A stretch of 50,699 nucleotides of DNA from Catajapyx aquilonaris (Eukaryota): NCBI GenBank assembly GCA_000934665.2, contig KZ538728.1:1-50699 (forward strand), in the 5' to 3' direction. Below the pieces are notes generated by a model. That model worked only from the letters and a program-made list of their open reading frames with translations, made no database searches and was not told the DNA's origin. Below, in pieces: positions 1,122 to 29,013 of the stretch (positions are counted from its first letter, which is position 1; each line of letters begins with the position of its first letter). The position numbers were made by a program, and so were the translations under genes.

Positions 1122-1745
1122 CGGGCGACACGGTGGCCGAGTGGTTAGCACCGGAGACTTCCACCTCTAAGGTCCCGAGTGCGATCCCCGGGTCGGACGG
1201 AGGATACTTATGTGGATAGAGTTACGATGGGTTCTCTCCGTGTTCGTGTGGGTTTTCTTGGGGTTCTCCCGTTTCCTCCCACTATCAAAATCCATCACAC
1301 CAAAGGAAATGATTAAAGTCAGTTTACGAAAAGATGATCCCCTAGGAGTCCCAAGGAGCCCTATCATGGGGTATCCCAAGGGGATAGTCACTCCTCAAAA
1401 AAGTGTACACCAGCTCTCTTGGGCACCGGCTCTCCGTGGCTCTCCTCTGCTCTCCCTGGCTCTCTGCGGCACCAGTGAGCCTGTAAGACCATGGGTGAAC
1501 TGGTGTATACTCACTGATGAGCATGTTGGTGAGCCGAGGAGAGCCGCGGAGAGCCGCGGAGAGCCCACGGAGAGCCCTCGGAGAGCCAGGGTGGGCCGAG
1601 GAGGCCGCTGAAGGCACACTACGTCATATGATGAGGAATGATGAGGAAGAAGGTGCGTTTTGCACCGGCTCTCCGCAGCTCACCAGTGAGGGTGTACACT
1701 GGCTCTCCGAAGTTACTACCCCCTTGGGGTATCCATTATTATTGG
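1122..1745 (+). mobile_element. tRNA-derived SINE with V-domain-like core, interrupted by a MITE at 1377-1726
   Basis: A box TGGCCGAGTGG, degenerate B box AGTGCGATCCC, core GTGTGGGTTTTCTTGGGGTTCTCCCGTTTCCTCCCAC similar to the V-SINE domain, (ATT)n tail; homologous copies at 19730-19982 and 26081-26379. Confidence 0.85.
1377..1726. mobile_element. MITE with CAAGGGG TIRs and 8-bp TSD (P-element/hAT-like)
   Basis: TIR CAAGGGGATAGTCACT / AGTTACTACCCCCTTG; exact TSD GGGTATCC at 1369-1376 and 1727-1734; internal GGCTCTCC/GGAGAGCC repeats. Confidence 0.85.
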
Positions 1746-7013: not shown

Positions 7014-10000
7014 TTATGAGTAACTTCGAGCTGACGATGACGATGAGTGGTGACGAGAGCTGGACCATGACTGCTGGTAGACATATGTTCCACCATTGTT
7101 ACTTCCACGACGACTATATGAGGTTGCAAATGCACTGCAATAACAATGCACAAAATTATTCATGTTCCTGAAGAAATGCTTCATGAAGACCTCACCCTGC
7201 CTGCACATTGTTGTTTTCTGGGACGAGCACTCGATCTATGACATGGACTATCCCATTGGTGTTGAGGATGTCACTCTTAGTGACAACTGCATCATTGATA
7301 GTGATACGGTCCTTCTTCTTGACAATGCCCACACTGCTCTCCTTTGTTGACACGCCATAGTACAGGTTAGGTTTGAAGGATTCCATTGCCATCATGCCAT
7401 CCACAACATGGTTCTTAATCAGCTATGTCAAGGAAACAAAGATGTCACTCTCTCTGACCAACCTTCATGTGTACAATTTTGTATGGAAGGAAAAGTGCAG
7501 GAGAGGCACAATACTTACATGTATAGTAGAAGGTTTTTTCACATCAACCCCAATCATTCATAGACCTTACAGCACTGCTTGTGCAGGCACGTAATGAGGT
7601 ACAAGAAAAAGAACATGTATGGCCAAGTCAGGAATTGTGTGTNNNNNNNNNNNNNNNNNNNNNNNNGGGCAAGTTTCTATAGTCACATTGCACTGTATGT
7701 GAAGTCCCTCATACAGGATGAATTTCCCTGAGCTTAGTTCTTGTTCCATATGCTAATTCCTAACAGTGCAGTGGTTAAAATTAAAATGTTACTCACAAAA
7801 CACGTGGAATAATTTCATGCATTACCGTGTATTACCCTGATGTAAAGTACAGGTCAGATAGCCCAACTCAAAACCCTGTATTTTGGCTTTTTGTCATTTT
7901 GAGATATTCGCTTTTGAAGTTTGTATGCTTCCGTTATCGTATTATAGGGAAGTGGATGGTTTCAATGTGGCCTTACCTGTTACTACCTCATGAGAGGGTT
8001 CAAATTAAAATTCTGCCACTCTCTCCAGTGTGGGTTAACATCTACTGTACAAGAAATTCATGTGCAATACACTTTTCATTCAGGTGAGATATTCCTACAG
8101 AATTATGGAGGTTGATTCATTCCTAGGGTTAATTACACAGATTTATATTATTATAAATTAAACTACATACATGTGTCAGGTACTCAGTGTCTTTCATCAT
8201 GTTCTGCACACGGTGGCGTCCCATCTTCTGGAAAGCCTCGTCATTTGGCACAAAAAAGGTAAAGGAAGACCCTCTCCTGCGCAGGTCCAGGTCAGGATTG
8301 ACATTCATCACACGTTCCATAGCCTCCAAGAATATTCTGCAATATGAGCCCTTATTTAAAGTTTCAATTTCAATAGAGGTTCTTTTAATTGAATCTTTGG
8401 AATGGTAATTTACTAATCTAGAGTGTAGATTATTGCCTGTAACAGTTGCTGCAATCCTCAACATTATCCCCCAAAAAGATTGTTTGAGTAAAAGATGTTC
8501 AATGTAGCATACGAGAAATTCCCTTCCTTCCTTAGTATGTCCCCAGCAGATTCATTGCAGGGTTGTAGAACCTTGTTGATGACATGAATGACTCCATTCA
8601 TTCCTTCAATATCTGGAGACTCTATGATGGCATCTTCAACACCCAGCGCCTTCCGATACACCATAAGACGGAGAGAATGTTGTTGATCCAAAGATCTAAG
8701 TGACTGGCTGGAAGTCATTCCATTTGTGCGGTGGCGACCCTGCGTCGTGTGGAACAGGACCAATTGCCTTGCCTTGTCTGGATTGCGCTTAGCTTCAGTC
8801 AGCACTGGTGTTGGCATTGCTAAAAATTCAGATATGGTATTGACAATATAATTATGCCCTTAATGTTTTCTAATCACAATTCCAATAGGATTATAATGTC
8901 AGTTAAAAGTTTCATAACAAAAACCTCTTTTCAACATTACTGCAATGCACATTAACCCTCGGACAGTGACATGGGCACTTTTTGTGACCAACGCAACTAT
9001 TTTCGCTATAACATTGAAAATATACCACATATGAGCGTCATCTTTTAGGACATCTCAGTTTGATTTCTTTTGTAATTAATGGCATTTAGTTTAAATTAGT
9101 AAATAGCACAATCACGAAAAAAAATCATTATGTACCGATGCGTAGCAGACTGCATTCCATCAATTTCTGCTTTAAGGTGCACTTACATGTGAGCGATTTG
9201 TGCGTGGCGATGCATCGCCAGCGGTAACATCGCTGTGTAACCAAAGTAACCCGTATTGTTCGAGGCGAAAATCGATTGTTACTTTCGCCCCAAACAATTG
9301 GATACATCGCCGCCGCGAACAAATCACTCACATGTAAAGGCATCTTTACAGAGCTTATCAGTACTGATAAGCTCAGGTCCTCCCTCTGGAAAGCTTAGTG
9401 ATTCATGAAGCCAGTTGTGGTTTTGGGCTTTCGAAAGGAAACCGGTTCGGCCTCTCAAGTGACATGCGTGTATTATGGCCCCAAATACGCATCAGTGCAT
9501 AATTGATTTTTATAAGATCATACTATCTGCTCGAAAATTATAAACTAAATGCCATTCATCGCAGAAGGAATAAACCCAAGATTGTTTTAAAGATGAAGTC
9601 CAAATATCGTCGGTGATCATGCAAAACCTCGTATCTTCCATTGGTTTTTGCAGGAGATACGAGGTTTTGCATGATCACCGACGATATGCTACATTTCCCA
9701 AGTTACGTATAACAAAAAATGTGACTTGGTCACAAAAAGTGCCCACGTCACCAGAGGAAGAACTTCTTACACATCACCGTCCTAGGGTTAAGGAGAAACA
9801 AAAGTTTGATTTTCACTCTATTTACTACAAATCTTTTGGGTTATTCTCAGCCCTGCAGGCATGTAATGGACATACTTAAGACAAAGGCACAATGTCACTT
9901 CACGAGAGCACACTAATCTTAATGCAGTTGTATATCACATCATCACATTGACTGCTTGTAAATGAAGTCTAAATTACATGCTCTGAGGTTTATCCAAAGT

Positions 10001-10781: not shown

Positions 10782-13700
10782 GGACCTCTATTTATAGGTG
10801 TGGTGGACTTGCGGTGTGGGACATGCAATGGGAGTGACTTTACAGGAGTGCCAACTTTACAGAGCATGCAAGGTTTTCGCTGTTACAGATCTGAGATAAC
10901 ATCTGTTCCACTTGCATAAGTATACTACAGGCACTAAAGAATCAAAAGCTACTTCAACTTCCAGAAAATGTGGAGGCAATTGTAGGCCACATTTGCACAT
11001 ACAATTACTGAAACCACAACACAATCAATTATAATACCTTCTCTTGCTTCCCGGTCACTTAAAATTTTCTCCAGGCGAGATGCTGGAATTTTCTGAAAGG
11101 CTTCATCTGAGGGAGCAAATATTGTGTAGGTTTGTCCGGTTGATTTCAGTTTCTGAATGAAATTGGAGTCTCTCATTGTTTTGGCTAACTGTGAGAAACG
11201 ACCATCCTGAAAAATGTAGAAACGTGATAAAGCTTGACCTGCACATTGGGTGTAAGTACGGTGAAACATGTCTACAATGAATTTTGGACACAGGGGAAAT
11301 TGTCAATTATGGAACTTTGATTCAGTCTGGCACAGGATTTCCAATGTACTGTAGGCTTACTCCTGTCACACGTAACAGAAACTTATTCAATGCTGATTTC
11401 TACAAACATGTTCCACTATACGTATTATGAATGAAACTTGAGTAAAGTTCTCAATTTTCTTACTTGCAATATCATATCTGCCACATCCATACGAGATACT
11501 ACAGCTGGGTCCAAAACATTTTCAATGAGATGAACAACTCCATTTGTTGCCTGTTGGTTCTTCCTCACGATCAGGGCACAATTAGCAGTTTCCATCTGCA
11601 ACAGTCATGATCAAGGCCTTCAGTTATAGACAGTATTATTTTAATGTGGACTCTTTTTGTAGCTTGAAGGGAAGAGGAGGTATTGTTGCACTCACCCCAT
11701 TGGAATATCTATTAATTCTGATGGGACGTTCATTGTACTTTGACACAAGGACTAGATTAGCTGAGAATTCATCTGCTGGAACTTTCCTGTCCACCAAATG
11801 ATAAAGAACAAATGGATTTCTAGGGTCACTCAATGACCGGTTCAGTTTTGTTTGCATGCTTCGAGTAAGGCTCTGAAATAACAAAAAAGGTGTCTATATA
11901 AGAGTTTGGCAATTTGTCTCATTCTTAACTTCTGGAACATATGAGTACTTTGTAGTGGTATTATACATGGAAGGATGATACATATAGGCCTACTAGGCGC
12001 AAGATAACTCATGCGTTTTGGGGCTGGCTTGTGTCCTTGGCAACCATAATTAGCCCCGCCCCCTGCTTAGTTTTTTGTATGGAATTTAGAACGATTGGTG
12101 GGGAAATATTTCCCCCCTGCTTGGTTACCAATTGTGTAAGTGTAAACAAACTCATCTCATTCTTGAGGTTTTAGAACATACCACCCATCTCCTTTGAAAT
12201 CGAATCCTGATTGGTCGACCGGTATAGGGGGCAGGGCTAAATATATGTTTCCCAAGGACACAAGCCACCTCCCAAAACGCATGAGTTATCTTGTCCCTAT
12301 AGTATACCCTTGGCCCGAGGAAGTATGAAAAATTCAATTTGCATTAAATGAAATGAAACTGACAAATTTTGTGATTCATTTTGCTTGCTTATGAACTCTT
12401 CCCTGGTTGTAAAAATGTCATATCTGCAATGTTCAATAAGGCTGAGTGTTGCTCGTCCAATACAACACTTAACGTTACTGCACAATACTGATACAGGTAC
12501 TGATATACAATTTTTTTCTGAGCAGGGTAGGACTTATATCAGCTCAGTAAAATACTCACCAGCATGCAACAAATCAGTACTCATTTATGATTTTCCCAGA
12601 AAATTAACCATGAACCAAGTTCTAGTTTATACTTTTGCTATTTTACCTTTATATTACGACTTGCAATCTTTAGGACAATCAAGTAGTAATGAGCAGGTTA
12701 AGTAGTTAGTATAGGGAGAAAATTATCACACAATCATATGCACTGGACTGGAGTAAGTTCAAAAATATTATCAGATTGGAAGTATTTCTATATTCATAAT
12801 AGTATTGTGGTTATGTGGTATCATTGATATAACATAAAGTATGCAACATTACCGGTATTTCTGCATATCATTACACTGATATACTTGTCAAAAGTACAGA
12901 TTGACATGTACATAATTATTTTCTCCTACCGTACTGTACTGTACCATTATTTGCCACTGATAAAATGCTGCGAATAGTGCAAGACATGCTTGACTTCATG
13001 CTTTTTATGCAGGATGGCAGGCTTGATAGGCTGACAGAGTAATTCGAAATTTAAATATTTGCAATTAAATAAGTGTAAACATGGTCTTCCATCATGATAA
13101 GCCGTGGTGATGATGTCGCTTGATCAGAGAAGCCAATAGCATTGTAATTTGCAGCAAGACTGCAAGAGCACATCTTGATTTTAGTAGGTTATCATAAAAA
13201 TACAGTCTATGACTTTATGCAATGATAAAGGTCACTGAAACATCAATATGCCTATGTCAAAATTAAATTAAGCATGTTTTAAAAGTTAATGAGCCAGAAT
13301 AACAGTTGACTCCGGATATAACAGCCTCGGCTATAACAGATTCTTAACTATAGCCGACTCGAAAGGCTGGTCTTCCCATACTTCCATATATGGTCTGTGT
13401 AGTGTATCTGACTATGACAGAGCTAGGTTATATCAGATTGATTTACACAGGCTCTTGAAGTCTGTTATATCCAGAGTCTACTGTACATTATCCATCAACT
13501 CCGTATAGCCACACTTTGGCCTGTGTTAGTAAAAATTATTACAAATATGATTCTCCATTGTAATTTAGGTGGTTTCAGGCTGACTACAAAGAATGGAATG
13601 CTTTTTATTATACTGTAAGCTTCTTTGGGCAGGAGAGTCATAGTATTCCAAATACCTGCTATACCACATTGTAACAATATTAAAATTAGTGGAAGTCAGC

Positions 13701-17365: not shown

Positions 17366-19166
17366 GTTTCGGGGCTAACTAAATCCCCCCTCCCCTTGAA
17401 AGACCGGCTATCTCGCACAAGTTTGAAACTAGTAATGGCAGCGAAGGGGGTATCCTTAAGGAACCATCTATAGTCCGGGGGCGTTTGAAGGGGGGCGGAT
17501 AGGGGGAGATGTTGGTGGGGTGGCTTTGGACCAGTTGGTTGGTTGGCAACTATACCTCCCACAATCCCTCATCCGCTTTCAGGAAAGGAAAGAAGCAGAA
17601 GAAGGAGAAGGAAAAAAAAAAAAAGCGGCCAAGGATTCCTAGGACACGAGAGAAGATTGCCCAATTCCCGCGTCAAGTCATGTCGCGAAACTTGTCCAAA
17701 ATAAGAGAGGCATGTTCTGCTCACTAATGATTAAGGCTGACATTTTTTTTTTCCAGTCAGGTGAAAGGGTTTGAACTTCTGGAGTACGATTGACAAATGG
17801 GTCGTTCGGAATGAGGCCGGGTATATGCCTACGAAGTTTGCAAATAGTGATGAGTTGGGGGCCCTCACTGGAGAATTTTTGGTGCCAGGCTCATTTCAAA
17901 ATCTATGCAATTTTCTGTCAGAAACCAACACAAATAGCGCCTAAATTACAATGTGACACTCTTTCTCCACCGCATGTAAATGTAGCACATTACGCAATTT
18001 CCAGACAACGGTAACGAACAGCGTGGGCAATATTCTCAAGGGCATCAGTCCTTCTTTGCACCTCGAATGTAAAAATAAAGACAATTGACTCTCCTTCGCC
18101 ATGACCTTGTTTGATTAGCATGCGTCGTATATATCTGAGTAACATAGTGCTAATCTGGTTTTCAGACTGGAGGCGGCATGCGGGCTGGGATGATATGTGG
18201 AGCTCATAAAAACAGGGTGAGGAAAAAAGTGCGTCACGCCATCCATCTGTCTTTTCCTCTAGCGAAGTGATGATTAAGACCTCAGAATTTTTCGCCCCAG
18301 GCAAGGGAATCCAAAGTGATATGCTGGAATTGTCTACCTGCCGAATTCGCAAATATAGAGAAATATTTCGGATTTGTGATGCTACGTAACCCAGTTCGGG
18401 AACTGTCATTAGGGACCATCCATAAATTACGTGGACACTTTTTTCAATCCCCCCCCCNNNNNNNNNNNNNNNNNNNNNNNNNNNNNNNNNNNNNNNNNNN
18501 NNNNNNNNNNNNNNNNNNNNNNNNNNNNNNNNNNNNNNNNNNNNNNNNNNNNNNNNNNNNNNNNNNNNNNNNNNNNNNNNNNNNNNNNNNNNNNCCCCCC
18601 TGTCTATGTTTATGGACTGCCCCTTAAATCTGCAAAAATCCTCCTTCTTGATACTTCCTTGTATTTTGCAGTCCCTCAGCCACACCCTACTATTACATAG
18701 GGCCTACTGTTTTCCTCAAAGACCACTACTTCAATGTATGGTGTTACACATTCTCTAATTAACACTTTTCAGATTTTCAGGAACAATGTGATCGATAATA
18801 ATTATACTTAATAATATGTGCTAGTCATATTGCCACTTGCTTACCTTTTGTAGCCAAGTACAGGGTGCTCAAGTGAACTCAGATAAGTAGAAATCTCACT
18901 TATGTTTCCAAGTCCAGTTGGTGCCATGGATTAATGGTGTGATGGGTTACTTTCTTGCACAGAGACTGAACCTTTTTCTGAACGACTTACAAATACCAAA
19001 TTTACATGCTAGAATGAGGTTATTTCCAGCAACACAGACTTGAGCTGACATTTGGGGAGCGTCCTGTATCATATTTACCAATTAATGTAGCAACCACCGG
19101 GAAGCATTATGAAAGGCAGGTCTAGCTGAAATATTTAAGCGCACATTATGATAATTTTATGCCATG

Positions 19167-21412: not shown

Positions 21413-24400
21413 TTAATACACATGCACCATGCCATACAAGAATCTGAATGCGTTGTTAAGAAAAGTTACAATGTGTAGGTGAAGCTTGACACTCAAGTAC
21501 ACGCATATTTCCCAGACCCAGATCAAGTTTCCTTTTACAGATCCCAAGAACAGTGTTCAACACCCACACACATCCCTATAAAGTATGTGGCTCACTACCT
21601 AACAGTGTCTGTGACATGTAAGAGCACGAGCAAGAAAAAATGGTATAACCTTGACATTGACTTTGACCTTATATCTGTTTCACTAATCTTGATGCAATGC
21701 GTAGTAAATTGTTTTTCCTCACTCTCTTTGTGGTTAGGAAAAGCTCATACCCAGTGTTATGCAACAAAATTGAAGGGCTCAGGAGAAAAACATGTTAAGA
21801 GTCAGTGGAATGTACAAAAAGTTCTTGGCCAGAATTTTTTTCATGGAAACAAATGAAGCACACTAGGTGTCCTCCTGCGGGTAGGTGTGGAGTACCTTCA
21901 TGAGTATTCGTGAATATTTTCCTGCCTGCAAAGAGCACCAGTCACTAGCAGTCAGCCTGAGAGCCCACTACTTTATGCCGGTTAACATGTTTTACTCCTG
22001 AGACGTTCATTTCATGCCAAAGCTACCTACTGACGGAACTGGAAGTCTCGCAGGGGATTCTGGATGCCTCAAAAGGTGACCCCGACTTCCAGAACACTGT
22101 GATGACTGGTGGCAAGTCGTGGGTCATACCCTGTTCAAGTTGTTCCTTAATTTCGCGGAAAATGAAAATTCAACAGGTGCCGATTACCCTTGGTCACTCA
22201 CAGGCTGACTGCCAGTGACTTACACTCTCTGCAGGTGGGGAAAAATTCACGAACACTCATGAAGGTACTCCCCACCTGAGGACACCTTCTGTGCTTCATT
22301 TGTTTATGCCGAAAAAATTCAGGCCGAGAACTATTTGCATTTCCCACTGCTGATTAACACGTTTTTCTCCCAAGCCCTTCAATTATGATAGTGACTAATA
22401 TTCACCCACTTTTTGAATGACTGCAATTACCGGAACATCAGCTGCTAATGGCCTGTTAAGGCACTTCAAATCCAACAAAAGGATACGTCCAGCAGAGAAC
22501 ATACGTCTGAAATTGTTGGTCAAGGAAAAATACTTTGGCAAAAATATTACACACCATACCAATGCAAAAGGATACAAATAGGCCTCCAAAGAATCCGTTG
22601 GTCAGGAGACCTTTTCGGCTGATAAAATACTTTTGCCAATAGAATCCAGCTTTTAATAATAACAGCATCTGTGTCAATCAAGTAGTACATCAGGTTAAAA
22701 AGTTCTTGCATGCGAATGGAATATAAGAAAGCTATTGTAAAACTCACCCATAGTCCAAAAACAGCAAACATGTAGAATATAAATCCATATAATCCGGTCA
22801 GTCCAAGAAGACCAGCAGTACTTCCTGACAAGGCAGCCATTGAGGTTCGGCAATATTCGACAATGGCAGCATTGTTGCGAATTGCAACTTCGCTGTAGGC
22901 TATCAACTCTGAGGAAACAAGAATTACAGAAGTGATTCTAATTGCATTGTTTGTTATCTAGAGCACAGAAACATAATATTAAGTAAATACAAATAAAGAA
23001 ATGAATAAAACAATGGAATCAAGGTTGGAAGAAAAATACAATCTTCACATTCTTCCCTGACACACTGCTTGTACATCAGCAATATTATTTTCAATGCTAT
23101 TAGTAACTATTTTATCAGATATTTCATTTGTCTTGCAAACGCAGTCTGGGAAATGATATGCATGGGTGTGCTCTTTCTGAGAGTACCCTGTCATGGTCAA
23201 TGCTTATCACATCCTATATTCGGATTTGTTAGTTAGTTAAGCTTTTTGTGGTGTAACAACAACAGTGGCTATACTGTGCAAGAGACAAAGTCATGTTTTA
23301 TGTTAACTTACATTAACTGCAATAATGAGCCAAAAGTGGGTAAATTGGGCTAAGACTGAGGTCTGTAATTGCACATAATTGTGAAGCAGCAGCAAATGAG
23401 AAGGTGGCAGCATGCTTGAAGAAATTAAAACTCGTTGATTTTCACAGTAGAGATTGGTGAAACACCCCATCATGAATCAATTTCATAGACTGTATAACTT
23501 TCCTGCATGAATTTTCAGCAGACTTTGGAGCACACTTTACTATCACATTTCTTGTTATGACAATATTACTTTCCAATACATAACTTTTGTCAATATGTGA
23601 TTGATTTATTGATTTGGATTTTATGGTGCAAAAGCAAACATGACTAGATGCTGTGCTAATTTGCCAATCTGTCATTTCTCCTAACCACAATTGTGCAAGG
23701 AAGATATGCATTGCATACAAGCACCATACTGTCCCTGCCGTATGCCACTGAAAGTATTAAAGTAATGTAAATCCGCAATATGTAGGCAACAATATTGTAC
23801 TGTACACTTGTCCACTAATATGCATGGGATGTGCCAGATGCGCAACTAAGCAAGTGCTCACATGTGAAGGTTAGGCAAAATCCACCATTAAAAAACAATT
23901 TGACTGTGACTACTCAAGTGCATGTGCAAAGCTATGAATTGTCTTATGACAGCTTGTAATATTAGGGGTTGTGACACTATCATAAACCTAATGCAGTGAA
24001 ACCTCGATAGTGTCTGACAATTTTCAAATAGGGACACACCTCCTCTCCCTCCCGCCCAATGAGCTTTGACTATCCCTATCTATCATCCCTCTGATTGGTG
24101 CTTCTATGAAAGGTCACCTACGTCACGTCCCTTACTCAAAATTGTCAGACTCTATAATGCTCCAGCATATACAGCTATCCTGGTTTTAACCCCCTTTTTT
24201 CCGGTCTCTTGATCAGTCCCATAAGGAGAATTTCCAGCATATAATGAATTCCTGATTATAACAGTACTTTGAGTCAGTCCCTTGAGAATCATTATATTGA
24301 GGTTTTACTGTATTTGTAATGGATAAATGTGTTATATGTAGTTTATAACTTCACACTTCAACGTTGTAGCTTACACTCCATTCTAAGAAGTAATATCATC

Positions 24401-26079
24401 CTCTGACGGCATATATTCATTTATGTATGAATATTATCCAATAAAAATTGGAGACTGAGTTCTCTCTCTGATATTGTACCATACCTGTTACAACCAAATA
24501 ACATCAGTTTATTTGTGCAAAATACACATTAGAGTGTAAAACACAAATTGACAGTTCTTATTCCACCGTTTATGAAGCAGTAATAATTGAGTGACCATAC
24601 AGTCAAGTGCCAAAGTTCAAGGTAATGCAAGCGTCATGTGTGGTAATGAACTTAGAATCAAAGTACAGTCCCGAGTCTCCAACTTTAGTTGGAGACACTG
24701 TGGGCCTTCTCTGGACACCTTCTATTATCAGACTCAAATTAATTGACTATTTTTGGACCCAGATGGCTGCTTTAGGTGTGTGTTCATACATTTATAACTG
24801 TAGGCCTATATTTGATACCGTAATGGAGGGGATTGGCAGAGCACCCTGCCGAAGGGGAGGGCCTGCCGTCTCCAACTTTATGCTCGGGACTGTATATCTG
24901 CTCATGGATTTGGCACAATAAATACAATTCACCCCCATTTCCCTTACAGCATGAAACCTGCCTAAAACAGATCCTGAATACAGCTGAAACTTCTTTACAG
25001 AACTTGGTTTAGTCCTGGATGAAGCTTTTCAATGTATTTTACACTAGTGAAAATACAGGGTGTTCCAAATATCCAGGTCACTTTTGGATAACTGGTATCG
25101 CCCGATAGCAGTTATCCAAAAGTGACCTGGATATTTGGAACACCCTGTACACACGCACTACTGGAGGGAGTAATCCATCATGCTTACCCCAGCCCATTGT
25201 TGGAGGTTTCAACTTAAGCAGTGTAGCACTCTGCATATTCAAATGCATCGGGACATCTGAAAGATGTCCCTAAGTCAGTTCAGATCTGCATTAGTGGAAC
25301 TCCTTTGTACAGACATGAGTCAAATTGGCACCCTGTTTGAACATATGATGTAATGAATTTTCTGAATACACATGCAGCATGTATGACTCACAAAGCTTGA
25401 CAACTTGAGTCAGGACTGTGTGCAATATTTCCAAATATGGACCTCACAAGTCAGCTGTTGTCCTCTCTTACTCCTCCTCCAAAGCGCGATTAATTATTTG
25501 GGCTATTGGTTTTTGCACAGCTATTAAAACGGTTTCACCACCTCACCTCGTAAAATTGGCGGGAGTACTTCTGAAATAGAACAGTTGGCTCCCTGTTGCC
25601 CATGCGCTTTTTAAATTATTTAGCCCAAACCGGTTCCCTGGCAACCAGGACAGGGAACCAACTGTTCTGCGTTTGAAAGTTCTCCACCGATTTTACGAGG
25701 TGAGGTGGTGAAACCGTTTTAAGCTGTGCTAATAGCTGTGCAAGAACCAATAGCCCAAATTAATCATGCTTTGGAGGAGTAAGAGAGGACAACTTTTGCC
25801 ATCGCACAACTGCGATATATTTTCCAAATTCGAATCAGAAACCAAGATGTCGTGAGCCGTTTTTCAAAAACCCCTCTCCTTGTAGAGCTCTCAATTATTA
25901 TTCTAATGAATTGAAACTCTGTCAGGGGCGCAATTGCCCCTTCCTCGCCATACTGTGAAAATTTCAGGTCCGTACCTCCAGCGAGACGCCCGCATCGGTG
26001 GTGCAAAGCGAACGCTGCACCCGTGACTCAGCCAAACTTAAACCGCAATTCCGAAAAATCACTTAGGTATCCGGCGCCC

Positions 26080-26136
<57 letters not shown>

Positions 26137-29013
26137 GATACTCCATGATAGGCCTCCTTGGGCCTTTTAGATCATCTTTTCAACAACCGACTTTAATCAT
26201 ATGCCTGTGCTCCAATGGGTTTTTCCATGTGGGAGGAAATGGGAGCCCCCTGAGAAAACCCATGTGAACACGGAGAGAACCCATCCAAACTCTATCCACA
26301 TAAGTATCCTCTGTCCGATCCGGGGATCGAACTCGGGACCTTAGAGGTGGAAGGCTGTGGCGCTAACCACTACACCACCCATAGTAGGCCTAATATGAAA
26401 TGAACAAGACTGGGCAGAGGTGATTTTGCATGATGTACAGCAAGACTGCACCACAACCAATCATCATTATCACTTGGTATATGTCAGCTATTGAGACAGA
26501 TTTAACAGAAAGCTGAGACAAGGTGCATGGTTGTGGTACTCATGTCTCCACACGCCAGAGAACATAGTGGTAGAGGTGAAATTGTACGAAATTCTCAATC
26601 CAGGTGTCTCTCTCTTGGGGTTTCCATCACAACCTGTCTTTAAAACATTTTTGGGGGTGCAAAATTGATGTTAGAAAGTACACTATTATTTTGTGGATAG
26701 GTTCATGTAGGGGCACAGTCCTGCCTAGATTTAACCCGGCTAGGATGTGAACATTGTGAGAGTGGGGTATCAACGAGCCTTCATTAGGGATGGGACTTGT
26801 CAAAAGATTTGCCTCATTAGTTTATTTCACTGCCTCTTATTCTACCATTGTAATAAAAAAAATTAGAAAAGAAAAAAAACAACAAGAGAAGCCATGTGCA
26901 CCACTACTTGTACAGTGCCATTCCGCTGTAATGTAGACGCAACCCAATGACCCGAAGAGGTAATGAAACGAAACTCGGGAAAAGGGGAAGGAAGAAATGA
27001 GGAGAGTATAAAGGAGAGCCAGGATGGAGCAAAGACAGAGGCGGACAACAGTGGAGAAGCAAAGTCCCGAGCTACAACTCAGATTTGCCAATTACAGGGT
27101 GAGTGCAAATGGAAGGTGTCACCAGGTTGTGCACACTGCCAGTGAGTGCTGGCCCATGTCTGGCCATAAGAAAGTGTGGTCACCCTACATAAGTGTACTA
27201 CATAACTAGTAGTATTCTATATGACTGTTAATAAATGTTGCTAGATCTGCTCACCTGGATTTAGAAAGCGCCTAACTCCTTCTACACTGGAGTTCAGGGC
27301 CAGTATCCAAACTGTCCAGCATCCCGATCCCAAAACCCCAGACACCACCACAAATGCGACATTGACACAGCCCGGTAAAATCCTGCTAGAACCAAAAATG
27401 GACTAATCTCCTTTTTGGAACTGAATACTGCTGTATGACCCATACTTTTTCCGGGTTGGCCTGGATGCAGTCTTTCGGTACCCCGTGACCCAAATAGACA
27501 ACCTGTTCTTGGAAAAAGTTACATGTTGAGATCTTCAGGCATAACCCGGCTTCCATGAGCTTTTTAAATATGCTCATGAGCCTGTGTAGGTGTTCAGCAT
27601 CTTGAAATGTTCTGGAAAATATGATATCATCGAGCTATACCAGGCCTGTCTCATCCTTTAATCCTGTTAAGATTGTGTCCCAAAATTTTTGAAATGTTGA
27701 CCAAAGTAAAGGGTATTCTAGTAAATTGGAACCTCTGAGAAGGAAGTGTAAACATGGGTTTTCCCTATCCTCTGGCAGGCTGAGCCATTGTCGTATTTGT
27801 GGTGTCGTTTGGACTTGGGTTTTGAGATTGGGATGCTGGGCAGTTTGGGTTGTGATGTGAAGGGTGTTAGGGGCACTCTAAACCAAGGAGTGCTAATCAA
27901 ACACCAACATTGTTTAAACAGGCATATAAAAACACTAATACAGTAGACTCCAAATATAACAGCCTTGGATATAACAGACTCTCGATGATACTAGACTGAT
28001 TTCCATGGTCCCTTGAAGTCTGTTACATCCAGAGTCTACTGTAGCTACATGGTACACTTATGTAGGGTAACCACCCTTGCTGATAGTCAGACATGGGTCA
28101 AGACTCACTCTGGCAGTGCACACAACCTGGTGATATCATCCATATGCACTCTCCCTGGCATCAGAATCTGGTTGTAGCTTAGGACTTTGCTTCTCTGCTG
28201 TTTTCCTCCTGTGTCTCTGCTCTGCCCTGGCTCTCCTCTCTCCGCATTTCCTCCTTTCCCTAAGTTCCGTTTAGAGACCTCTTTGGGTCACTGGGTCTAC
28301 GTTACAGTATCAGTGGTAGGTTGTGGTACAATCTAGTCCTACTTCATTCATGACCAATACCTCTGTAGAGCTGTGCTTGATATTGTTTCATAAAACCACA
28401 GACAATACATGGCATACCTCCACAGCTGCAAATTTCCTGATGACATCCTATGCCTATCTGGCTGGTGAAAATAATACAATGCAATCTATAGCACGAATGA
28501 CAAAACTTGGTAATTATGGATCATTTTAAATTAATTTTAATTGGTATGTTTTTTCAGATATGAATTTCTCTTTGCTCAGGTAGTTTTGAATAAAGGACAG
28601 GTGTAGTTTTTTGTTGACATGTTTCAGAGAGGTATATTTTCTTCCTTGATAAAGTGCCTTTAGTGGCATTAGTTTAACTATCATTTAAGCTAATCAGCGA
28701 GGAAAAATACCTCTCGTTCTCATGCATACGATGGACCAAACATTAGACCAAAAAAAAAAAAAAAAAATCGCACCTTCGTCTTGTGTTTCTAAGCATTGTA
28801 AACTGGCTTCATGTGCTTCAAATGAGCGAGAAGTGTTCGTTTTTTATCTCGATCAGCAAAACAGAACAGTCACTTTTTTCGGGGTAGAAAAACAACTCGT
28901 CTGGGACGGAAGTAGAAAAAAATCACAGCTGAGACCGCACTTTTAATATGCACGCTCATAAATAACTCACCTCCTGTTTTTTCCAATTTAGTTTTCACTC
29001 TGTTAGACACCAT
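21413..29013 (-). CDS. EMC6: ER membrane protein complex subunit 6 (EMC6/TMEM93), 115 aa, 5 coding exons
   Basis: Exons 29013-28971 ([14 protein letters not shown]), 22908-22748 ([54 protein letters not shown]), 22668-22576 ([31 protein letters not shown]), 22506-22487 (TYVLCWT), 21443-21413 (FLYGMVHVY*); all phases compatible; matches the known EMC6 signature [25 protein letters not shown]...[16 protein letters not shown]. Confidence 0.96.
21444..22486 (-). other. U12-type (minor spliceosome) GT-AG intron, EMC6 intron 4 (1043 nt)
   Basis: 5' site GTATCCTTTT (22486-22477); branch CTTTTCTTAAC (21465-21455) about 11 nt before CAG, with no polypyrimidine tract in between. Confidence 0.88.
21768..22384 (+). 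mobile_element. Mariner-derived foldback element with ~190-bp inverted arms inside EMC6 intron 4
   Basis: AATTGAAGGGCT...GAGAAAAACATGTTAA / TTAACACGTTTTTCTC...AGCCCTTCAATT; centre encodes [29 protein letters not shown] (22039-22125), a degenerate mariner xxTGDExWV region. Confidence 0.75.
22507..22575 (-). other. U12-type (minor spliceosome) GT-AG intron, EMC6 intron 3 (69 nt)
   Basis: 5' site GTATCCTTTT (22575-22566); branch TTTTTCCTTGAC about 12 nt upstream of the CAG end. Confidence 0.9.
23994..24310. mobile_element. Tigger-type MITE with nested foldback (24010-24153)
   Basis: CAGTGAAACCTCGATA / TATATTGAGGTTTTACTG; inner GTCTGACAATTTT...AGGGAC / GTCCCT...AAAATTGTCAGAC. Confidence 0.6.
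24665..24891. mobile_element. TA-flanked MITE
   Basis: TA-CAGTCCCGAG...CTCGGGACTG-TA; GTCTCCAACTTTA subterminal repeats. Confidence 0.65.
25056..25147. mobile_element. Near-perfect 92-bp Tc1/mariner-type mini-MITE
   Basis: TA-CAGGGTGTTCCAAATATCCAGGTCACTTTTGGATAACTG...CAGTTATCCAAAAGTGACCTGGATATTTGGAACACCCTG-TA. Confidence 0.85.
25457..25792. mobile_element. Foldback/palindromic element
   Basis: GTTGTCCTCTCTTACTCCTCC...AAAACGGTTTCACCACCTCACCTCGTAAAAT / ATTTTACGAGGTGAGGTGGTGAAACCGTTTT...GGAGGAGTAAGAGAGGACAAC. Confidence 0.75.
26081..26379 (-). mobile_element. tRNA-derived V-domain SINE, copy 3, with long (ATT)n tail
   Basis: Homologous to the 1122 copy; B box GAGTTCGATCCC on the minus strand; CCCATA flanking repeat. 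Confidence 0.85.
26927..28306 (-). mobile_element. Gypsy-derived element: two LTRs in inverted orientation flanking an RT pseudogene fragment
   Basis: LTR1 26927-27361 (+, TGTAA...CGACA, TATAAA, AATAAA); LTR2 27789-28306 (-, same family, interrupted by a Tigger MITE); RT 27700-27375 (-): [65 protein letters not shown]...PEKV. Confidence 0.85.
27941..28041. mobile_element. Tigger-type MITE inserted in LTR2
   Basis: TA-CAGTAGACTCCAAATATAAC / GTTACATCCAGAGTCTACTG-TA. Confidence 0.7.

What the first reader, a model, noticed from the sequence alone, without database searches (positions are those of the whole stretch)
21444..22575. Two consecutive U12-type introns isolate a 20-nt micro-exon in EMC6
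Seen: EMC6 introns 3 (22575-22507, 69 nt) and 4 (22486-21444) both begin GTATCCTTTT. Both have U12-like branch sites (TTTCCTTGAC, TTTTCTTAAC) about 11-12 nt from the AG. They bracket a 20-nt exon (ACGTATGTTCTCTGCTGGAC, TYVLCWT) within the last transmembrane helix. Known: RTATCCTTT plus a TCCTTRAC branch defines minor-spliceosome introns, which are rare and usually single per gene; from memory, human EMC6 has no introns in its CDS. Inference: U11 and U12 must assemble on both sides of a 20-nt exon and across a 69-nt intron. Skipping the micro-exon frameshifts the C-terminus, so EMC6 output could be tightly coupled to minor-spliceosome activity.
Basis: partly seen in the sequence, partly recalled or inferred. 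Interest (0 to 1): 0.8.

Follow-up and report, generated by a model that had tools for sequence, protein, structure and literature searches.

The report
Two minor-type introns around 20-base exon
In this insect-like genome the small ER-membrane gene EMC6 carries two neighbouring introns of the rare "minor spliceosome" type that leave only a 20-base exon between them, an arrangement shared by many insects and apparently not described in print, though its parts are of known kinds.

Summary
EMC6 lies on the minus strand in five coding exons (115 aa). Introns 1 and 2 start GTGAGT. Intron 3 (22575-22507, 69 nt) and intron 4 (22486-21444, 1043 nt) both start GTATCCTTT. These are the only two copies of that 9-mer in the window. 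Each intron has a TTCCTTRAY-type branch site 13 or 12 nt before its end. Between them lies a 20-nt exon encoding TYVLCW(T).

Comparison shows two different ages. Intron 3 starts GTATCCTTT in 18 of 18 sequences where that site is visible, including annelid-like and unassigned animal contigs. Intron 4 is present in 5 of 13 sequences, all insect-like. Four are U12-type. One has a GTAAGA start but keeps a U12-like branch site. Intron 4 is absent from all 8 non-insect contigs.

Mis-annotated database proteins point the same way. Louse, mayfly and bee models read ...WT-YPF, and six insect models skip the micro-exon.

No RNA data could be obtained, so minor-spliceosome dependence is inferred from sequence. 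Adjacent minor introns are known in mouse (12 of 722). I found nothing in print on EMC6 or on a micro-exon between two minor introns. This is a new member of a known kind, in an unusual arrangement.

The parts
28971..29013 (-). EMC6 coding exon 1 (ATG at 29013; [14 protein letters not shown] plus the first base of the next codon), followed by a GTGAGT donor
   Evidence: Script scan and direct reading. The spliced product is 115 aa and aligns from residue 1 with insect EMC6.
22909..28970 (-). Intron 1 (6062 nt), U2-like GTGAGT...CCTCAG. It contains repeats and a tRNA-derived SINE-like copy.
22748..22908 (-). EMC6 exon 2 (161 nt; (E)LIAYSEV...FAVFGLW)
   Evidence: Translation; Pfam PF07019 E 5.2e-10; 79-85% identity to insect EMC6
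22669..22747 (-). Intron 2 (79 nt), U2-like GTGAGTTTT...GACACAG, phase 0
   Evidence: The same position is read through in database models (GLW-VS...).
22576..22668 (-). EMC6 exon 3 (93 nt; [31 protein letters not shown])
   Evidence: Translation; Pfam EMC6 profile positions 41-71 of 81
22507..22575 (-). Intron 3, 69 nt, phase 0, U12-type GT-AG. The donor GTATCCTTT is at 22575-22567. The branch site TTCCTTGAC is at 22527-22519, with the branch A at 22520, 13 nt from the intron end.
   Evidence: The donor is GTATCCTTT in 18 of 18 orthologous sequences.
22487..22506 (-). Exon 4, a 20-nt micro-exon ACGTATGTTCTCTGCTGGAC (TYVLCW plus two bases of T)
   Evidence: The same 20-nt exon, with synonymous differences, occurs in L053, L056, L058 and L062.
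21444..22486 (-). Intron 4, 1043 nt, phase 2, U12-type GT-AG. The donor GTATCCTTT is at 22486-22478. The branch site TTTCTTAAC (8/9) is at 21463-21455, with the branch A at 21456, 12 nt from the intron end.
   Evidence: The same site has a GTATCCTTT donor in L053, L056 and L058. WT-YPF read-through appears in 4 database models.
21413..21443 (-). EMC6 exon 5, coding part (last base of T, then FLYGMVHVY, stop TAA at 21415-21413)
21765..22387 (.). Foldback (MITE-like) inverted repeat inside intron 4. Arms are at 21765-21963 and 22197-22387, 78-84% complementary.

Best explanation
EMC6 of this insect-like arthropod has five coding exons. Its last two introns are both GT-AG introns of the U12 (minor-spliceosome) class, and they flank a constitutive 20-nt coding exon. 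Intron 3 (phase 0, between ..GGLF and TY..) is an ancient animal U12 intron. Intron 4 (phase 2, after TGG AC) is a second U12 intron found only in the insect-like sequences examined.

Inferred mechanism: each intron is recognised by intron definition. The preformed U11/U12 di-snRNP binds the donor and the branch site of the same intron cooperatively. In the 69-nt intron 3 these two sites are only about 40 nt apart. The branch A of intron 3 and the donor of intron 4 are 33 nt apart across the micro-exon, so two di-snRNPs can hardly sit there at once. Removal is therefore probably ordered. Intron 3 is fully transcribed first. Once it is removed, exons 3 and 4 form a 113-nt exon, and intron 4 can then be spliced normally.

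Because both donors and both acceptors are U12-compatible, joining donor 3 to acceptor 4 (skipping) is chemically possible. It gives a frameshifted, probably inactive C-terminus. Correct EMC6 output should thus need two successive minor-spliceosome reactions.

Shown here: motifs, positions, frames and conservation. Inferred: snRNP binding, order of removal and dependence on minor snRNPs.
For: (1) Motifs. Both donors match RTATCCTTT 9/9. The branch sites match TTCCTTRAY 9/9 and 8/9, with the branch A 13 and 12 nt from the intron end. Definitions come from PMC1635337 and PMC3584512.

(2) Not chance. 2 of 5690 GTs carry GTATCCTTT. Only 4 of 5789 AGs have an exact branch motif at the right distance, or 14 of 5789 with up to 1 mismatch.

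(3) The exons are required. The spliced product is 115 aa and aligns end to end with insect EMC6. Of the 120 database relatives listed, 83 end ...GMVHVY.

(4) DNA-level conservation. The intron 3 donor is GTATCCTTT in 18 of 18 sequences. Its branch site has at most 1 mismatch, at 11-14 nt, in 11 of 12 sequences. Intron 4 has a GTATCCTTT donor and a TTCCTTCAC branch at 13 nt in the termite-like loci L053, L056 and L058. The 20-nt exon differs only at synonymous sites.

(5) Protein-level traces. Models of Pediculus, Menopon, Ephemera and Melipona read ...FWT-YPF, which is what AC|GTATCCTT encodes; a GTAAGT or GTGAGT donor would give a stop instead. Six models skip the micro-exon and read GGLF followed by frameshifted exon 5: Vespa, Ooceraea, Lycorma, Neodiprion, Halyomorpha and Daktulosphaira.

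(6) Geometry. The review passages say the 5'ss and branch site are held close together within the di-snRNP and are bound cooperatively.
Against: There is no RNA evidence, and no whole genome is held in which to look for minor snRNA or protein genes. The intron 4 branch site has one mismatch. A 69-nt minor intron is short, and shorter minor introns are reported to be retained more (PMC6717393, passages).

The signals are not universal in insects. Locus L062 has GTAAGATGG at the intron 4 donor. The Ooceraea model P0042 reads through a 58-nt intron 3 that begins V-Q-I, so it does not start GTATCC.

57 of the 80 fetched loci have uninterrupted coding sequence across both intron positions. They may be cDNA or intronless genes, and some lie in contigs above 100 kb. 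The V-S-F read-through seen at intron 3 in protein models is not diagnostic, because GTGAGTTTT encodes the same residues (ORF 22547..22957). The proposed order of removal is pure inference.
Confidence: 0.85

Rival explanations
1. The micro-exon is a regulated cassette. Skipping it (donor 3 joined to acceptor 4, both U12-compatible) is used on purpose to tune EMC6 level or to make an alternative C-terminus, rather than being splicing noise or an annotation error.
For: Six insect gene models, several labelled isoform X1 or X2 by NCBI, are exactly the skipped form. The altered reading frame ends in the last exon, so by general knowledge of NMD rules the mRNA would probably escape decay.
Against: Automatic pipelines commonly miss 20-nt exons, so these models may be artefacts. 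The skipped tails are not conserved as protein. The lost segment ...[16 protein letters not shown] is invariant or nearly so. No RNA data were available.
Confidence: 0.15
2. The introns look U12-like but are removed by the major spliceosome, or by a mix of the two.
For: They have GT-AG termini. L062 shows that the intron 4 position can work with a GTAAGA donor. U12-to-U2 conversion is an accepted process (PMC2831892, passages).
Against: GTATCC is a poor match to the U2 donor GTRAGT (recalled consensus). The donor is strictly conserved 9/9 in 18 of 18 intron 3 sequences and in 4 of 5 intron 4 sequences. The branch motif lies at 11-14 nt, which is what selection by U11 and U12 pairing predicts, and there is no room for a polypyrimidine tract.
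Confidence: 0.05
3. The two GTATCCTTT copies act as a U11-binding splicing enhancer (USSE-like tandem 5' splice sites) rather than as donors.
For: There are two U12-type donor motifs 89 nt apart on one strand. The USSE is described as a tandem repeat of U12 5'ss.
Against: Both motifs sit exactly at exon ends needed for the conserved reading frame. Their spacing is 89 nt here but about 1.7 kb in termite-like loci. USSE motifs lie in non-coding regions and are not used as donors.
Confidence: 0.02

Closest known systems
Adjacent minor introns in mammalian minor-intron-containing genes (MIDB survey, Olthof et al. 2019, PMC6717393)
   Same: Two U12-type introns are direct neighbours in one gene. 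[quoted passage not shown]
   Different: The exon sizes between those pairs are not given in the passages I read. The exon here is 20 nt and one intron is 69 nt. The gene is not in any list I could search.
Genes with two U12-type introns, such as voltage-gated Na+/Ca2+ channel alpha subunits (Lin et al. 2010 PMC2831892; Janice et al. 2012 PMC3291851)
   Same: They carry more than one U12 intron per gene, of ancient origin, with lineage-specific loss or conversion to U2-type.
   Different: The insect survey covered 71 U12 introns in 70 genes, and only one gene had two. EMC6 is not among the terms found in its text or supplement.
[quoted passage not shown]
   Same: A tandem pair of U12-type 5' splice-site motifs on one transcript.
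   Different: USSE motifs are non-coding and are not used as donors; they activate an upstream U2-type 3'ss. Here both motifs are real donors, and their spacing is not conserved.
U12-to-U2 intron conversion (Burge 1998 model, as discussed in PMC2831892 and PMC7367187)
   Same: Locus L062 has intron 4 at the identical site with a GTAAGA donor, but still has TTTCTTAAC 10 nt before the AG. This is the expected intermediate after a donor switch.
   Different: This is seen in one unnamed contig only, and the direction of change is inferred.
Micro-exons (30 nt or shorter) flanked by U2-type introns
   Same: A tiny, conserved, frame-critical exon that annotation pipelines often miss (search listings for PMC7821500 and PMC8831610).
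   Different: Known micro-exon recognition is described for the major spliceosome. Here both flanking introns are U12-type.

Membership tests
U12-type (minor-spliceosome) GT-AG intron | 5' splice site matching RTATCCTTT | tested here: met
   Introns 3 and 4 both read GTATCCTTT, 9/9. Consensus from PMC1635337.
U12-type (minor-spliceosome) GT-AG intron | Branch-point sequence matching TTCCTTRAY | tested here: met
   Intron 3 TTCCTTGAC, 9/9. Intron 4 TTTCTTAAC, 8/9.
U12-type (minor-spliceosome) GT-AG intron | Short branch-to-3'ss distance (optimum 11-13 nt) and no polypyrimidine tract | tested here: met
   The branch A lies 13 and 12 nt from the last intron base. The 9-10 nt between the motif and the AG are mixed purine and pyrimidine. 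Criterion from PMC3584512.
U12-type (minor-spliceosome) GT-AG intron | Conservation of U12 signals at the orthologous position in other species | tested here: met
   Intron 3 donor: 18 of 18. Intron 3 branch with at most 1 mismatch: 11 of 12. Intron 4 is U12-type in 4 of the 5 sequences that have it. YPF read-through occurs in 4 named insects.
U12-type (minor-spliceosome) GT-AG intron | PWM/SVM classification (intronIC or equivalent) | not tested
Only consensus matching was done.
U12-type (minor-spliceosome) GT-AG intron | Junctions used in RNA; excision depends on U11, U12, U4atac and U6atac | not testable with these tools
   No RNA run was listed and no genome is held. An Rfam scan of the window found no snRNA.
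EMC6 (Pfam PF07019) | Significant match to the family profile and full-length similarity to named EMC6 proteins | tested here: met
   Exon 2 scores 40.1 bits against a cut-off of 23.3. The 115-aa product aligns over residues 1-115 at 77-81% with insect EMC6.
USSE (U11 snRNP-binding splicing enhancer) | Tandem U12 5'ss motifs in a non-coding region, not used as donors, at a conserved distance from an upstream U2-type 3'ss | tested here: not met
   Both motifs are exon-intron boundaries of the conserved reading frame. Their spacing ranges from 89 nt to about 1.7 kb.
Micro-exon | Exon of 30 nt or less | tested here: met
   Exon 4 is 20 nt. The definition is as in the abstract of PMC7821500 (search listing).

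The most novel reading that the evidence does not exclude
Intron 4 may be a lineage-specific gain of a U12-type intron on the branch leading to insects or arthropods. It would have been created 20 nt downstream of the ancient U12 intron 3, for example by reverse splicing or transposition of that intron into its own transcript. That would make insect EMC6 one of very few documented minor-intron gains in animals.

The resulting 20-nt exon would be a natural case where U12 on an upstream branch site and U11 on a downstream donor, 33 nt apart, must cooperate or take turns.

Intron 4 is present in 5 of 5 insect-like sequences and absent from 8 of 8 non-insect sequences that all keep intron 3. Precise loss of one intron 20 nt from a retained one, repeated in several lineages, seems less likely than one gain. 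However, U12 loss is generally far more common than gain, the outgroup contigs are not taxonomically assigned, and no chelicerate, myriapod or crustacean gene structure could be seen.
Probability: 0.4. Interest if true: 0.7.

Novelty: new member of a known kind. Interest (0 to 1): 0.5.

Why it matters
Minor introns are rare, and the surveys read here found almost no gains of them in animals. How the minor spliceosome handles exon definition has been studied only for mixed minor/major neighbours. A conserved 20-nt exon held between two U12 introns, one only 69 nt long in this species, is a compact natural substrate for two questions. Can two U11/U12 di-snRNPs bind 33 nt apart, or must removal be ordered? 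How sensitive is an essential ER-insertase subunit to minor-spliceosome activity?

The comparative pattern covers three states in one small gene: an ancient intron 3, an insect-only intron 4, and one lineage with a U2-type donor. That gives a clean case for dating a possible U12 gain and a U12-to-U2 conversion. It also explains recurrent mis-annotation of insect EMC6, seen as read-through tails and skipped isoforms.

Tried and rejected
RNA evidence: the look-up of sequencing runs listed no RNA holder (none was listed, which is not the same as none existing).

Whole genome: none is held, so minor snRNA and protein genes could not be sought.

Earlier notes of this scan: nothing on this genome or sequence. 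A word search gave only unrelated items.

Rfam and tRNA scans of the window: no hits.

RNA structure around the micro-exon: not different from shuffles (z -0.09). No structural bridging is proposed.

Naming the non-insect outgroups: exon 2 of L078 gave at best 61-63% identity to named Priapulus and Lingula proteins. L069 and L068 are 82-87% identical to an annelid protein. The rest stay unassigned.

Looking for read-through or skipped models in chelicerates and crustaceans: the profile search listed only the best 120 of 974. All the newly fetched proteins among them (P0157-P0228) had normal C-termini apart from two with extensions after the normal end. Intron 4 therefore could not be dated beyond insects.

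Origin of intron 4 by duplication of intron 3: the two introns share only GTATCCTTTTG in the window, and only the 9-mer in termite-like loci. There is no support for or against.

USSE reading: rejected (see membership test).

V-S-F read-through as proof of a U12 donor at intron 3: rejected, because GTGAGTTTT gives the same residues. Only DNA-level loci are counted for intron 3.

Literature searches:
- 'EMC6' with 'U12-type': 0 papers.
- Six phrases for adjacent, consecutive or tandem U12/minor introns: 0 papers.
- A two-of-six term search returned 740 papers. The 25 listed had no EMC6, TMEM93 or CG11781; the other 715 were not inspected.
- 'minor intron' with 'microexon': 16 papers. Micro-exon terms with U12 terms: 392 papers, 25 listed. 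Of these I opened only one for the combination (PMC8329584). It mentions micro-exons only in passing.
- EMC6, TMEM93 and CG11781 do not occur in the held supplements of PMC11347168, PMC7644725, PMC10639083, PMC3291851 and PMC7367187.

The online databases IAOD, MIDB and U12DB could not be queried and may list these introns.
Full report
1. What is in the window

The minus strand between 29013 and 21413 carries a complete EMC6 gene (ER membrane protein complex subunit 6).

- Exon 1, 29013..28971, encodes [14 protein letters not shown] and ends before a GTGAGT donor.
- Exon 2, 22908..22748, translates to LIAYSEV...FAVFGLW. It matches Pfam EMC6 at E 5.2e-10, 40.1 bits against a cut-off of 23.3.
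- Intron 2 (79 nt) starts GTGAGT.
- Exon 3, 22668..22576, gives MLLLLKAG...GFFGGLF.
- Intron 3, 22575..22507, is 69 nt.
- Exon 4, 22506..22487, is the 20-nt ACGTATGTTCTCTGCTGGAC.
- Intron 4, 22486..21444, is 1043 nt.
- Exon 5 starts at 21443 and encodes FLYGMVHVY followed by a stop.

Spliced by coordinates in a script, the coding sequence is 348 nt, giving 115 aa with one terminal stop. It aligns over residues 1-115 with insect EMC6 at 77-81% identity. The best matches are models named Hetaerina and Laodelphax; a decapod model reaches 67%. No whole genome is held for the window. By similarity the organism is an insect or a close relative. No database protein is more than 85% identical in exon 2.

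2. Are introns 3 and 4 U12-type?

The published consensus is RTATCCTTT for the donor and TTCCTTRAY for the branch site (PMC1635337, passages). The optimal branch-to-3'ss distance is 11-13 nt, and there is no polypyrimidine tract (PMC3584512, passages).

- Intron 3: donor GTATCCTTT (9/9); branch TTCCTTGAC (9/9), with its A 13 nt from the last intron base.
- Intron 4: donor GTATCCTTT (9/9); branch TTTCTTAAC (8/9), with its A 12 nt from the end.

GTATCCTTT occurs only twice in the 50.7-kb window on both strands, and these are the two donors. The expected count is 0.45, and 1 of 100 shuffles reached 2. This is 2 of 5690 GT dinucleotides. An exact branch motif at 10-15 nt is found at 4 of 5789 AGs, or at 14 with up to one mismatch.

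The 8-mer RTATCCTT alone is at chance level (5 found, 4.06 expected). I did not examine the other three sites beyond reading one of them. Introns 1 and 2 of the same gene have ordinary GTGAGT donors. By sequence definition both introns are U12-type. No PWM classifier could be run.

3. Conservation, DNA level

An alignment of 21 EMC6 proteins was used to scan metagenome contigs, and 80 loci were returned.

- 57 loci have uninterrupted coding sequence across both intron positions. These may be cDNA from metatranscriptomes or intronless genes. Some lie in contigs of 117-218 kb, so EMC6 without these introns exists in some eukaryotes.
- 4 loci end before exon 3.
- 19 loci are informative.

With the window included, the counts are as follows.

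- The intron 3 donor is GTATCCTTT in 18 of 18 sequences.
- The intron 3 branch site has at most 1 mismatch, at 11-14 nt, in 11 of the 12 sequences with a visible 3' end. L078 has 2 mismatches.
- Intron 3 length ranges from 69 nt (window) to about 1750 nt.

These loci include several groups:

- Termite- or cockroach-like contigs: L049-L051, L053, L055, L056, L058, L059. Exon 2 is 93-95% identical to Timema, Blattella and Zootermopsis models.
- Other insect-like contigs: L062, L070.
- Annelid-like contigs: L068, L069, at 82-87% to a Lamellibrachia model.
- Contigs I could not assign: L074, L075, L078, L079, L080. The best named relatives of L078 are 61-63% identical.

Intron 3 is therefore an old animal U12 intron.

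4. Intron 4 has a narrower distribution

The intron 4 position is visible in 13 sequences.

- Present in 5: the window; L053, L056 and L058; and L062.
- The three termite-like loci have a GTATCCTTT donor, a TTCCTTCAC branch at 13 nt, and a length of 1243 nt.
- In L062 the 71-nt intron starts GTAAGATGG, which has 5 mismatches to the U12 donor. It still has TTTCTTAAC 10 nt before the AG. This looks like a U12-to-U2 donor switch.
- Absent in 8: L069, L074, L075, L076, L077, L078, L079 and L080. In these the 20 nt are fused to the last exon. All are non-insect or unassigned. Seven of the eight show a U12-type intron 3 just upstream (a GTATCCTTT donor and/or a branch motif); L076 shows only the CAG at its contig end.

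The micro-exon differs among species only at synonymous sites, apart from F/C and V/I changes, as expected for coding sequence.

5. Conservation, protein-model level

Of the 120 listed relatives, 83 end in the normal ...GMVHVY.

- Four models continue ...FWT-YPF...: Pediculus, Menopon, Ephemera and Melipona. T-Y-P-F is the translation of AC|GTATCCTT. A GTAAGT or GTGAGT donor would give an immediate stop. These four models therefore report a U12-type donor at intron 4 in lice, a mayfly and a bee.
- The Melipona model also runs through a 96-nt intron 3.
- Six models join ...GGLF directly to frameshifted exon 5 (tails such as IPLWYGTCLL). This is the micro-exon-skipped form. They come from Vespa, Ooceraea, Lycorma, Neodiprion, Halyomorpha and Daktulosphaira.
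- Read-through at intron 3 gives V-S(-F) in five models: Zootermopsis, Melipona, one annelid-like model and two unnamed. This is not diagnostic, because GTGAGTTTT encodes the same residues.
- One ant model (Ooceraea P0042) reads V-Q-I at the start of a 58-nt intron 3, so the donor there is not GTATCC.

The arrangement of two introns around a 20-nt exon thus spans Ephemeroptera, Blattodea, Psocodea, Hemiptera and Hymenoptera. The order names are from my own knowledge of the species named by the sources. Some lineages have altered signals.

6. How it probably works

Shown here: motifs, positions, phases, and the frameshift on skipping. The tail in this species is [24 protein letters not shown].

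Inferred from the literature: the U11/U12 di-snRNP binds the donor and branch site of one intron cooperatively, and holds them close together. That suits a 69-nt intron whose two sites are about 40 nt apart.

The branch A of intron 3 and the donor of intron 4 are 33 nt apart (13 + 20). I therefore expect the two introns to be removed one after the other. Intron 3 would go first, because it is complete before the 3' end of intron 4 is transcribed. After that, exons 3 and 4 form a 113-nt exon.

All four splice sites are U12-compatible, so donor 3 can be joined to acceptor 4. This would explain the skipped isoforms if they are real.

Correct EMC6 needs two minor-spliceosome reactions in series, and shorter minor introns are reported to be retained more. 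Sensitivity of EMC6 output to minor-spliceosome activity is therefore plausible but untested. No significant RNA structure surrounds the micro-exon. A roughly 200-nt inverted repeat fills much of intron 4; if it folds, it would shorten the effective distance between donor and branch site.

7. Comparison with what is known

- U12 introns cluster in the same genes in 21 of 21 genomes analysed (PMC7367187, section 15).
- In mouse, 12 of 722 minor introns have a minor neighbour (PMC6717393, passage).
- The insect survey found two U12 introns in only one of 70 genes, a voltage-gated channel (PMC3291851, passages).
- U12 gain is very rare; at most one case was found (PMC2831892, passages).
- A pan-eukaryotic survey speaks of a lack of minor-intron gain in recent evolutionary time, and of unusually long minor introns in insects (PMC10639083, passages and section 32).

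I found no paper linking EMC6 with U12 introns, no hit for phrases describing adjacent U12 introns, and no EMC6 entry in five supplements. The online intron databases could not be queried and may hold these introns as unremarked rows.

8. Verdict

The thing is a new, uncommented member of a known class, in an unusual and conserved arrangement.

The most novel reading still open is that intron 4 is a genuine U12 gain next to an ancient U12 intron. I give that about 0.4. The 5-of-5 against 0-of-8 distribution and the 20-nt spacing favour gain. The general excess of U12 loss, and the lack of chelicerate, myriapod and crustacean gene structures, argue for caution.

Noticed in passing
L062:750-1122 (metagenome contig, insect-like): The same 20-nt exon is preceded by a U12-type intron 3 (GTATCCTTT...TTCCTTGAC). 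It is followed by a 71-nt intron 4 with a U2-like GTAAGA donor that still carries TTTCTTAAC 10 nt before the AG. This is an apparent U12-to-U2 conversion intermediate.
   Followed up: partly
window 8129-8859 and 10949-11302, minus strand: Open frames encode FAS1 (fasciclin) domain segments, 62% and 43% identical to a 927-aa Timema model (P0060). That model carries Pfam FAS1 plus EMC6 domains. The FAS1 gene and EMC6 are therefore neighbours on the same strand in both genomes, and the Timema model is probably a fusion artefact.
   Followed up: partly
window 21765-21963 and 22197-22387: A large inverted repeat (foldback or MITE-like, arms 78-84% complementary) occupies about 620 nt of the 1043-nt intron 4.
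   Followed up: no
window about 1132-1330 (+) and 26190-26380 (-): Two copies of a repeat about 200 nt long with a tRNA-like head (GGTGG..GTGGTTAGC..GGTCCCGAGTxCGATCCCCGG). They are about 85% alike over the shared part, and one lies in EMC6 intron 1. ARAGORN and Rfam do not call either copy. This is probably a tRNA-derived SINE family.
   Followed up: partly
window about 25060-25150 and 25480-25750, minus-strand reading: Near-perfect palindromic stretches inside EMC6 intron 1, seen by eye. They look like further foldback or MITE-like elements.
   Followed up: no
window about 18300-18560: A run of N (assembly gap), visible as X runs in the open frames.
   Followed up: no
window about 26090-26150 and about 1900-2000: Long trinucleotide (TTA/AAT-type) microsatellites.
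   Followed up: no
Database protein P0042 (named Ooceraea biroi by its source): This model reads through a 58-nt intron 3 starting V-Q-I, so not GTATCC. It then reads the micro-exon in a shifted frame. This suggests that the intron 3 donor has changed in this ant, although back-translation of I-Y-F-F-L-N allows a TTCCTTAAT-like string about 37 nt from the intron end.
   Followed up: no
Loci L013, L026, L048, L066 and others: EMC6 coding sequence is uninterrupted across both intron positions in contigs of 39-218 kb, at 44-62% identity to the insect query. Some eukaryotes therefore have EMC6 genes lacking both introns.
   Followed up: no
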